Shown in pieces: positions 1-55,197 of a DNA stretch of 64,000 bases. Numbering within the stretch: the stretch's first letter is position 1; each line of letters begins with the position of its first letter. A model generated the notes under the pieces. That model ran no database searches and was not told where the DNA came from. It saw only the letters and a list, made by a program, of their open reading frames with translations. Made by a program: the position numbers and the translations under genes. Source of the DNA: Octopus sinensis (lineage: Eukaryota); NCBI RefSeq assembly GCF_006345805.1, contig NC_043001.1, forward strand, positions 59,272,001 to 59,336,000. Reading direction: 5' to 3'.

Positions 1-236
1 ATGACTATTTAATTTTTTCCACTAGGCCGCTGGTGGCAAAAAAATTCTACAAAATTTTTTGCCACACTATATTGATTAATTATGAATTTTCTGGTTAGTT
101 CCGTAATGGAATCGGCGGCTTATATTTATTTGCTGCCGATAAATTTGGCGCGAGTGCGATGATTTGAAAATTTTAGGTCAGATATTGCCGAGGCAGGGTG
201 GGAAATGCTCGTGAAAATATCTGTTCCGACTTGGCT

Positions 237-343
237 ATTTCTTACTGATGATTCTAAGGGCCTATGGAAGATTGGCTTGATTTAATTTAATCAGGTTAGT
301 TTACCATTAAACAGTAGATGAAACGGTGCATCGTATAAGAAAT
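237..343 (+). ncRNA. Type I hammerhead ribozyme, array copy 1
   Basis: Stem I ATTTCTTA (237-244) pairs with TAAGAAAT (336-343). Core CTGATGA at 245-251, stem II TCTA/TAGA with a long hairpin extension, GAAA at 320-323. Stem III is ACGG-TGCA-TCGT, with the GTA triplet at 333-335 (predicted cut after 335). Confidence 0.85.
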
Positions 344-723
344 TACAGGGTAAATGTTTTTTAATTTTCTCCTGGTTTACGGAATTGATGTTTATTTGCG
401 GTTGAAGCTTTGGCTGTTATTTCTAGTGGGTGAATGGCCTATTATGGCCGTTCCTTGATTGTGATGTTGAACTTAAAAATGGTCTATGACTATTTAATTT
501 TTTCCCACTAGGCCGCTGGTGGCAAAAAAATTCTACAAAATTTTTTGCCACCCTATATTGATTAATTATGAATTTTCTGGTTAGTTCCGTAATGGAATCG
601 GCGGCTTATATTTATTTGCTGCCGATAAATTTGGCGCGAGTGCGATGATTTGAAAATTTTATGTCAGATATTGCCGAGGCAGGGTCGGAAATGCCTCGTG
701 AAAATATCTGTTCCGACTTGGCT

Positions 724-830
724 ATTTCTTACTGATGATTCTAAGGGCCTATGGAAGATTGGCTTGATTTAATTTAATCAGGTTAGTTTACCATTAAACA
801 GTAGATGAAACGGTGCATCGTATAAGAAAT
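724..830 (+). ncRNA. Type I hammerhead ribozyme, array copy 2
   Basis: Same motif as copy 1. CTGATGA at 732-738, predicted cut after 822. Confidence 0.85.
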
Positions 831-1210
831 TACAGGGTAAATGTTTTTTAATTTTCTCCTGGTTTACGGAATTGATGTTTATTTGCGGTTGAAGCTTTGG
901 CTGTTATTTCTAGTGGGTGAATGGCCTATTATGGCCGTTCCTTGATTGTGATGTTGAACTTAAAAATGGTCTATGACTATTTAATTTTTTCCCACTAGGC
1001 CGCTGGTGGCAAAAAAATTCTACAAAATTTTTTGCCACCCTATATTGATTAATTATGAATTTTCTGGTTAGTTCCGTAATGGAATCGGCGGCTTATATTT
1101 ATTTGCTGCCGATAAATTTGGCGCGAGTGCGATGATTTGAAAATTTTAGGTCAGATATTGCCGAGGCAGGGTGGGAAATGCCTCGTGAAAATATCTGTTC
1201 CGACTTGGCT

Positions 1211-1317
1211 ATTTCTTACTGATGATTCTAAGGGCCTATGGAAGATTGGCTTGATTTAATTTAATCAGGTTAGTTTACCATTAAACAGTAGATGAAACGG
1301 TGCATCGTATAAGAAAT
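1211..1317 (+). ncRNA. Type I hammerhead ribozyme, array copy 3
   Basis: Same motif. CTGATGA at 1219-1225, predicted cut after 1309. Confidence 0.85.
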
Positions 1318-1697
1318 TACAGGGTAAATGTTTTTTAATTTTCTCCTGGTTTACGGAATTGATGTTTATTTGCGGTTGAAGCTTTGGCTGTTATTTCTAG
1401 TGGGTGAATGGCCTATTATGGCCGTTCCTTGATTGTGATGTTGAACTTAAAAATGGTCTATGACTATTTAATTTTTTCCCACTAGGCCGCTGGTGGCAAA
1501 AAAATTCTACAAAATTTTTTGCCACCCTATATTGATTAATTATGAATTTTCTGGTTAGTTCCGTAATGGAATCGGCGGCTTATATTTATTTGCTGCCGAT
1601 AAATTTGGCGCGAGTGCGATGATTTGAAAATTTTAGGTCAGATATTGCCGAGGCAGGGTGGGAAATGCCTCGTGAAAATATCTGTTCCGACTTGGCT

Positions 1698-1803
1698 ATT
1701 TCTACTGATGATTCTAAGGGCCTATGGAAGATTGGCTTGATTTAATTTAATCAGGTTAGTTTACCATTAAACAGTAGATGAAACGGTGCATCGTATAAGA
1801 AAT
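1698..1803 (+). ncRNA. Type I hammerhead ribozyme, array copy 4 (1-nt deletion in stem I)
   Basis: ATTTCTA then CTGATGA (1705-1711) ... GAAACGGTGCATCGTA-TAAGAAAT. Predicted cut after 1795. Confidence 0.8.
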
Positions 1804-1922
1804 TACAGGGTAATGTTTTTTAATTTTCTCCTGGTTTACGGAATTGATGTTTATTTGCGGTTGAAGCTTTGGCTGTTATTTCTAGTGGGTGAATGGCCTA
1901 TTATGGCCGTTCCTTGATTGTG

Positions 1923-2930
<1,008 letters not shown>

Positions 2931-2931
2931 T

Positions 2932-2974
<43 letters not shown>

Positions 2975-55075: not shown

Positions 55076-55164
55076 TTTAGCTGATGAATACTGGACATTT
55101 GTATTTGCTGCAATACTTGCAGCTTTAAATAAAATTGTTCTTGGTATGAAACAATTGTACTAAA
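55076..55164 (+). ncRNA. Type I hammerhead ribozyme at the PLE 3' end, with extended stem II
   Basis: Stem I TTTAG (55076-80) pairs with CTAAA (55160-64). CTGATGA at 55081-87. Stem II ATAC...GTAT encloses GGACA/TGTTC and GCTGCAA-TAC-TTGCAGC. GAAA at 55148-51, palindromic stem III ACAATTGT, GTA triplet with predicted cut after 55159. Confidence 0.85.
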
Positions 55165-55197
55165 CTACTAATCCATTCTTGTTGCTTTTTTCTTGGT

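What the first reader, a model, noticed from the sequence alone, without database searches (positions are those of the whole stretch)
19..495. The whole monomer appears to fold into a branched structure, with G-U wobbles that identify the + strand as the functional RNA
Seen in the sequence: outside the HHR most of the unit pairs. Hairpins include GGUGGCAAAAAA/UUUUUUGCCACC, AUCGGCGGC/GCUGCCGAU, GAUUUGAA/UUUAGGUC, CAGAUAUU-CGAGGCA/UGCCUCG-AAUAUCUG and GAAUGGCC/GGCCGUUC. Long-range pairs include UUAGUUCCGUAA (~96-107) with UUACGGAAUUGA (~378-389), and CCACUAG (~19-25) with CUAGUGG (~423-429). AAAUGGUC-UAU-GACUAUUU also pairs at ~477-495. Most deviations from Watson-Crick pairing are G-U on + and would be A-C mismatches on the minus strand. 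Inference: selection acts on RNA structure rather than on DNA palindromy, as in retrozyme and viroid circRNAs.
Basis: partly seen in the sequence, partly recalled or inferred. Interest (0 to 1): 0.72.

Follow-up and report, generated by a model that had tools for sequence, protein, structure and literature searches.

The report
Folded hammerhead retrozyme with two-ended insertions
This is one copy of a 487-base non-coding repeat with a hammerhead ribozyme motif, present thousands of times; changes inherited between copies tend to spare its predicted RNA fold, G-U pairs alone do not mark the strand, and it is likely copied by a borrowed Penelope-type enzyme from two fixed points of one RNA.

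Summary
Nearly all listed helices are present and the unit folds far better than shuffles (z about -6). It does so equally on both strands; G-U pairs (15-18%) are no commoner than in shuffles (21%), and the strand energy gap is compositional. The G-U argument fails as stated, although + is the RNA strand: the hammerhead lies on + and both fixed insertion ends are + 3' ends. Across 108 insertions, inherited substitutions outside the hammerhead are less destabilising than type-matched random ones (p=0.001; 0.02 without one loop). Six double changes support hammerhead stems, only one supports an outside helix, and two listed hairpins are broken in subfamilies. The element is a non-LTR retrozyme (3,294 exact hammerhead cores). 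Insertions are head-to-head arms in (TA)n ending at two sites 104 nt apart (67 mixed pairs, 1 like pair), and the arms share rare variants (27 vs 0.6 expected): likely twin priming by a Penelope-like RT on one RNA. Cleavage, circularity, expression and the partner element are not shown. The scan had already noted this two-ended geometry on other DNA of this genome.

The parts
1..1924 (+). Last four units of the + arm of a head-to-head retrozyme insertion; period 487; the insertion begins about 1.8 kb upstream of the window
336..822 (+). Unit-length RNA between predicted cleavage sites (also 823-1309, 1310-1795); no ATG ORF of 35 aa or more inside the unit
237..343 (+). Type I hammerhead: stem I 237-244/336-343, CUGAUGA 245-251, long stem II, GAAA 320-323, short self-complementary stem III, predicted cut after 335 (copies at 724-830, 1211-1317, about 1697-1803)
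751..794 (+). Distal extension of stem II (q416-459); four of five inherited changes keep or create a pair
377..592 (+). Long-range helix 377-388 with 581-592 (q42-53/246-257); three of three inherited changes are G-U/Watson-Crick swaps
423..511 (+). Multiloop closed by 423-430/504-511, holding hairpins 432-453 and 477-495 and end site A
518..552 (+). GGUGGC hairpin (q183-217); carries the only double change outside the hammerhead (2 insertions, one event)
597..626 (+). Hairpin q262-291; predicted, but broken at one pair in 13 insertions
665..710 (+). Two-part hairpin: outer helix q330-337/368-375 without inherited change; inner helix q340-363 broken in two subfamilies; loop hypervariable
454..465 (+). 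End site A (q130): fixed 3' end of one arm; this insertion ends here at window 1924
557..569 (+). End site B (q234): fixed 3' end of the other arm, 104 nt downstream of A; predicted mostly unpaired; lies in a block with one inherited change in 43 nt
1925..1945 (.). (TA)n target microsatellite

Best explanation
The unit is a non-coding tandem repeat with a type I hammerhead motif whose inherited changes tend to spare the predicted fold, and it likely spreads as a non-LTR retrozyme: a predicted self-cut, probably circular RNA copied by a borrowed Penelope-type reverse transcriptase. Shown: repeat, hammerhead motif with compensatory stems, thousands of dispersed copies, (TA)n targets, head-to-head arms ending at q130 and q234, rare variants shared by both arms, low predicted folding cost of inherited changes. 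Inferred: arrays are transcribed on +; hammerheads cut, probably as dimers through the self-complementary stem III; a host ligase closes the unit; a Penelope-like protein cuts (TA)n on both strands and primes once at each site on the same RNA; the two cDNAs join head-to-head. The fold outside the hammerhead is likely kept as a stable RNA body and RT-recognition surface, with some hairpins dispensable.
For: Fold z -5 to -6. Inherited vs private changes outside the hammerhead: mean ddG 0.06 vs 0.97 kcal/mol, n=60 vs 170, p=8e-5. Type-matched null p=0.001, or 0.019 without loop q347-356, while 264 private changes match the null (p=0.96). Hammerhead stems: 13 of 18 inherited states keep pairing vs 25 of 92 private, p=6e-4, with double changes at q1/396, 4/393, 5/392, 8/389, 408/467, 409/466; tool count 5 pairs, 4 of 500 shuffles as high. 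Core columns invariant except N7 and one singleton. 3,294 exact cores vs 1 control. Ends in 107 insertions: 67 A/B, 1 A/A, 0 B/B, 8 with one end elsewhere, 29 single-armed, 2 cut by the fetch; 144 of 152 flanks (TA)n. 27 rare variants shared across arms vs 0.62 in 2,000 permutations, 17 of them fixed in all covering units. Genome holds RT plus GIY-YIG open frames of 775-781 aa; the 781-aa family also ends in (TA)n at two sites. PMC11167929 ties the tail to two RT starts.
Against: Each compensation is only 1-3 events on the tree. The folding-cost signal also holds on the minus strand (p=0.004) and the strand difference is not significant (p=0.34). Ten of 27 cross-arm variants are in only some units, and several arms show 2- or 4-unit periodicity, which a pure monomer circle does not give. 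No Penelope-like element among 54 sampled loci resembles the unit (best E 0.05). The monomeric hammerhead is predicted 1.5-3.4 kcal/mol short of its active fold, and this array has U-U at the base of stem II; Li et al. found cleavage in only 1 of 9 tested retrozyme dimers. The fold test uses predicted energies only.
Confidence: 0.72

Rival explanations
1. Same element and enzyme, but the template is a linear multimeric transcript of an existing array; arrays lengthen afterwards by unequal crossing-over or slippage, and circles are a by-product or absent.
For: Partial cross-arm sharing in 10 insertions, once with the variant in the same unit of both arms (L005), and periodic arms. The window's own insertion is locally duplicated with its flank. 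In the Anolis PLE system uncut RNA is the main substrate (PMC11167929).
Against: 17 rare variants are fixed in every covering unit of both arms, up to 8 units. Arms reach about 14 units, and linear copying with 5' truncation can only shorten arrays. Stem I and II compensations show the hammerhead fold is maintained.
Confidence: 0.22
2. The hairpins are DNA-level inverted repeats or compositional by-products, with no selection on RNA outside the hammerhead.
For: Equal z on both strands, no G-U excess, pair count at shuffle level; covariation outside the hammerhead not significant; two hairpins broken in subfamilies.
Against: Inherited changes are depleted of destabilising ones while private changes are not. 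None of 60 changes costly on + only is inherited (12 are seen as private), against 4 of 72 costly on minus only (19 private). Helix q42-53/246-257 varies only through G-U swaps.
Confidence: 0.1
3. The G and U richness, and thus the G-U pairs, arise from A-to-I editing of the RNA written back by reverse transcription rather than from selection.
For: Tree-polarised inherited changes: A>G 35 vs T>C 29, p=0.018 against base composition; unit composition G110, C70, T181, A126.
Against: Not different from private changes (47 vs 52, Fisher p=0.42); only 2 of 17 insertion-specific fixed variants are A>G; several counted events are one homoplastic site.
Confidence: 0.12

Closest known systems
Metazoan non-LTR retrozymes (Cervera and de la Pena 2020, PMC7229834; Li, Clavereau and Pollet, bioRxiv 10.64898/2026.07.22.740005)
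   Same: Non-coding tandem units with one type I hammerhead each, GC below 50%, thousands of dispersed copies, predicted self-paired monomer; U-U at the stem II base as in axolotl HHR_Amex2; weak stem III suited to dimers.
   Different: 487 nt against about 170-400 nt in the 2020 paper (within the 51-972 bp range of the preprint); about 67-nt stem II; head-to-head arms with two fixed ends in (TA)n are not described in the parts I read; cleavage and circles untested here.
Endonuclease-bearing Penelope-like elements: inverted 5'-truncated copy and tail (Craig et al. 2021, PMC8557442; Frangieh et al. 2024, PMC11167929)
   Same: Tandem plus inverted insertion structure, AT-rich or (TA)n targets, two 3' ends separated by a tail, hammerhead in the repeat.
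   Different: No ORF; tail 104 nt instead of 30-40; near-strict pairing of one short and one long end, whereas the in vitro study saw no difference of start site between strands; no sequence likeness to sampled autonomous elements.
Hammerhead viroids and plant LTR retrozymes (as reviewed in PMC7761336)
   Same: Structured RNA with a hammerhead; variation that spares helices.
   Different: Type I rather than type III; no LTR, primer-binding site or polypurine tract (not searched for specifically); hammerhead stems form in the predicted fold instead of being blocked by a complementary strand; genome-encoded, no sign of infectivity.

Membership tests
Non-LTR retrozyme | Tandem units each with a type I hammerhead motif | tested here: met
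   Rfam gives no hit at gathering score or for a hammerhead at E<=5, probably because of the long stem II (inference)
Non-LTR retrozyme | No protein-coding capacity, GC below 50% | tested here: met
   only a 34-aa ATG frame per unit; 37% GC
Non-LTR retrozyme | Many dispersed genomic copies | tested here: met
   3,294 exact cores; 5,817 matches of the q97-125 segment with up to 3 mismatches
Non-LTR retrozyme | Predicted stable self-paired monomer | tested here: met
   z -5 to -6
Non-LTR retrozyme | Self-cleavage in vitro | not testable with these tools
   core invariant and stems compensatory; monomer misfold predicted
Non-LTR retrozyme | Accumulation as circular RNA | not testable with these tools
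   only contigs of runs guessed to be RNA were available
Non-LTR retrozyme | Large target-site duplications when present | tested here: inconclusive
   both flanks are (TA)n, so duplication length cannot be read
Non-autonomous Penelope-like element | Inverted 5'-truncated arm and a tail at one end | tested here: met
   tail 104 nt
Non-autonomous Penelope-like element | 3' sequence similarity to an autonomous family | tested here: inconclusive
   none in 54 loci drawn from 150 scored of 5,029 GIY-YIG candidates
Autonomous Penelope-like element | RT plus GIY-YIG open frame | tested here: not met
   no such frame in the unit; tblastn with the 781-aa frame found nothing in the window

The most novel reading that the evidence does not exclude
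The non-hammerhead body is a selected docking structure: two hairpin-plus-UUGAUU modules 104 nt apart present two start sites to a dimeric Penelope-type RT on one RNA circle, which copies it round and round from both broken DNA ends. That would explain retrozyme mobilisation and the inverted-arm-plus-tail signature of Penelope-like elements in one model, readable from hundreds of genomic insertions.
Probability: 0.35. Interest if true: 0.75.

Novelty: new variant of a known kind. Interest (0 to 1): 0.47.

Why it matters
Retrozyme monomers are routinely drawn as folded circles, but in the papers I read that rests on energy predictions. Here inherited versus private substitutions give a built-in control, and they indicate that part of the fold outside the ribozyme is constrained. 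They also show that counting G-U pairs does not reveal the strand in a G+U-rich repeat. The insertion ends name two exact RT start sites and suggest one template for both arms, which makes the proposed but unproven Penelope-driven, circle-templated spread testable in vitro. The folded monomer itself is expected for this class.

Tried and rejected
Rfam: no family at gathering score; one chance snoRNA match at E 0.73. Short-stem-II version of this hammerhead in the genome: 0 matches. G-U count, strand energy gap and mismatch census as strand markers: rejected. Possible pseudoknot q349-355/376-382: perfect in unit 336-822 but broken at q350, 352 and 376 in large subfamilies; rejected. RNAalifold on 46 per-insertion majority rows was disturbed by homopolymer indels and was not used for counts. 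Partner search by blastn and nhmmer: nothing significant. Expression: no RNA holder listed; contigs of five runs guessed to be RNA cover the unit, but contigs cannot show level or strand; summed depth relative to a neighbouring repeat was lower than in the DNA run; not used as evidence either way. Inner junctions: only 36 of 73 resolved; 19 with overlap of 0 or more (mean 1.7 nt vs 0.73 null; 7 with 3 or more), 17 with inserted bases; too thin to test whether junctions follow helices. The single B/B call of the motif-based tally was a misread 5' truncation. Editing write-back: inconclusive. PMC9977147 passages added nothing.

Full report
WHAT IS THERE. Window 1-1924 is four copies of a 487-bp unit. 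Each carries a type I hammerhead motif on +: CUGAUGA at 245, a stem II of about 67 nt, GAAA, a short stem III and a GUA site ending at 335, 822, 1309 and 1795. Positions are given as q, counted from the cut (window 335+q). No call names the host; genome size and repeats look octopus-like (my guess; earlier scan notes say the same).

CHECK OF THE OBSERVATION. The listed helices are present, with three copy-specific exceptions, and have pair probabilities 0.79-0.99. Unit 336-822 folds at -143.4 kcal/mol as a circle, z -6.0 against 100 shuffles; its reverse complement at -104.2, z -5.6. For the non-hammerhead part of unit 823-1309 (q9-388, 150 shuffles), z is -5.7 on + and -6.5 on minus. It has 120 pairs vs 118+-6 in shuffles, G-U is 18% vs 21%, and the strand gap is -27.7 vs -30.8+-5.0. 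Among 14 mismatches embedded in Watson-Crick helices, 4 are G-T and 1 is A-C, as composition predicts. The stability is real and comes from long Watson-Crick helices; the G-U census does not mark the strand.

THE FAMILY. A genome search gave 259 matches in 40 scored of 904 candidates. The 16-nt core occurs 3,294 times exactly (control 1). I assembled 567 pieces from 108 insertions: 30 close to the window unit, 34 taken by position along contig C1, 37 from a search with a divergent copy and 7 further C1 loci. Dropped before counting: overlapping fetches, three local duplicates (in L031, L090, L091) and pieces under 45 nt (under 80 nt in two loci). Pieces are mostly 88-100% identical to the window unit. 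A state was called inherited if it is the majority in at least two insertions, and private if it occurs once in an insertion with at least three covering units. Private changes (mutation after insertion plus sequence error) serve as the neutral control.

IS THE FOLD SELECTED? Hammerhead stems: 13 of 18 inherited pair states keep pairing vs 25 of 92 private (p=6e-4), with six double changes. On 34 real units the tool counts 5 such pairs, reached by 4 of 500 shuffles and by at most 2 in slid controls. Core columns are invariant but for N7 and one singleton. Helix q42-53/246-257 varies only by G-U swaps (3 of 3), whereas q262-291 and q340-363 are broken in subfamilies of 13-14 insertions. Each compensation is 1-3 events on the tree (75 insertions). 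A structure-free test is stronger. Sixty inherited substitutions in q9-388 cost 0.06 kcal/mol on average vs 0.97 for 170 private ones, a random subset of those available (p=8e-5). Against all 1,140 single changes matched by type, p=0.001, or 0.019 for the 45 outside loop q347-356, while 264 private changes fit the null. The same holds on the minus strand (p=0.004; 0.059 without the loop), and the strand difference is not significant (p=0.34). Inherited changes are sparse in q61-87 (1 site of 27), q218-260 (1 of 43) and q261-337 (3 of 77), where private ones are common. That fits selection on structure but also on sequence, for example a protein-binding site.

WHICH STRAND. The hammerhead is on +. 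Both fixed outer ends of insertions are + 3' ends, and the variable ends are 5', as target-primed reverse transcription of a + RNA gives (established for this class). Inherited pair types lean to + (22 vs 4, against 85 vs 48; p=0.042).

HOW IT INSERTS. Of 107 insertions scored by alignment (L020 left out because it spans two fetches; it is also A/B), 67 have one arm ending near q130 (A) and the other near q234 (B). One is A/A, 0 are B/B, 8 have one end elsewhere, 29 are single-armed and 2 are cut by the fetch. In the 34 positional loci there are 19 A/B, 2 with one end elsewhere and 13 single-armed. 144 of 152 flanks are (TA)n, and either arm may be the longer (37 vs 30). Several single-armed cases keep a stub of the other end. 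Both sites follow a strong hairpin and share UUGAUU upstream. In 79 two-armed insertions the arms share 27 rare variants vs 0.62 expected (maximum 5 in 2,000 permutations): 17 fixed in all covering units, 10 partial. Both arms therefore come from one template or source; polishing artefacts or gene conversion could add to this count. Craig et al. (PMC8557442; 12 of 16 passages) describe inverted truncated copies and a 30-40 bp tail for Penelope-like elements. Frangieh et al. (PMC11167929; parts 1-2 of 4) show extension of both DNA strands, a predicted dimer and a tail equal to the distance between two RT starts. The genome holds such elements with open RT plus GIY-YIG frames, but none of 54 sampled loci resembles the unit, so the partner is unidentified.

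CUTTING AND CIRCLES. Not shown. The monomeric hammerhead is predicted 1.5-3.4 kcal/mol short of its active fold in four copies. The 12-nt stem III segment is self-complementary (duplex -17.5 vs hairpin -0.2 kcal/mol), which favours dimeric cleavage as reported for amphibian retrozymes (PMC7229834). Fixed variants over up to 8 units and arms of about 14 units favour rolling-circle copying; partial and periodic sharing points to multimeric templates in some cases.

COMPARISON WITH PRINT. Cervera and de la Pena 2020 (PMC7229834; parts 2-4 of 6; supplement unreadable) already predict self-paired retrozyme circles and propose Penelope-like elements as mobilisers. Li et al. (bioRxiv 10.64898/2026.07.22.740005; parts 1-3 of 5; supplements not seen) derive retrozymes from their terminal repeats. 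PMC7761336 (8 passages) states that the repeats show no motif revealing the partner. I found no paper describing two-armed retrozyme insertions with paired fixed ends or a substitution test of the fold (searches; listings only for papers not named here). Unseen supplements and subscription journals may hold either. Earlier scan notes report the same two-ended geometry for what appears to be this family and for others; they are not independent evidence, and I had reached this reading before seeing them. One note prompted the editing test, which was inconclusive.

VERDICT. A real, partly constrained fold in a retrozyme; the G-U strand argument is not supported; the more informative feature is the insertion footprint. 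Interest 0.47.

Noticed in passing
L031:3940-9501 and window 1925-2972: The window's insertion is preceded by a near-identical copy with the same flank, and the 474-bp downstream flank repeats 2.2 times: a local duplication or an assembly artefact.
   Followed up: partly
L031:7460-7880: The head-to-head junction of the window's insertion falls in hairpin q262-291, so its arms may have been joined through that inverted repeat (read).
   Followed up: no
L033, L034, L103, L131: Long arms show variants recurring every 4 units; others every 2. Multimeric circles or later tandem duplication.
   Followed up: partly
L192:2264-3375: A different hammerhead-like repeat with a long stem II, also arranged as inverted arms between (TA)n tracts; similar motifs at L192:2037 and L193:786-1728.
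   Followed up: no
L115:1174-4874: A young Penelope-like family with open 781-aa RT plus GIY-YIG frames and an overlapping upstream 479-aa frame without Pfam match; ends in (TA)n at two sites about 35-40 nt apart.
   Followed up: partly
window 55076-55170 (+): Isolated hammerhead-like pattern match unrelated to the array; may be chance.
   Followed up: no
window 739 and 806 (q404, q471): The pair closing stem II varies among insertions: A-U 52, U-U 22 (this array), A-C 8, A-A 1; subfamilies may differ in cleavage rate.
   Followed up: partly
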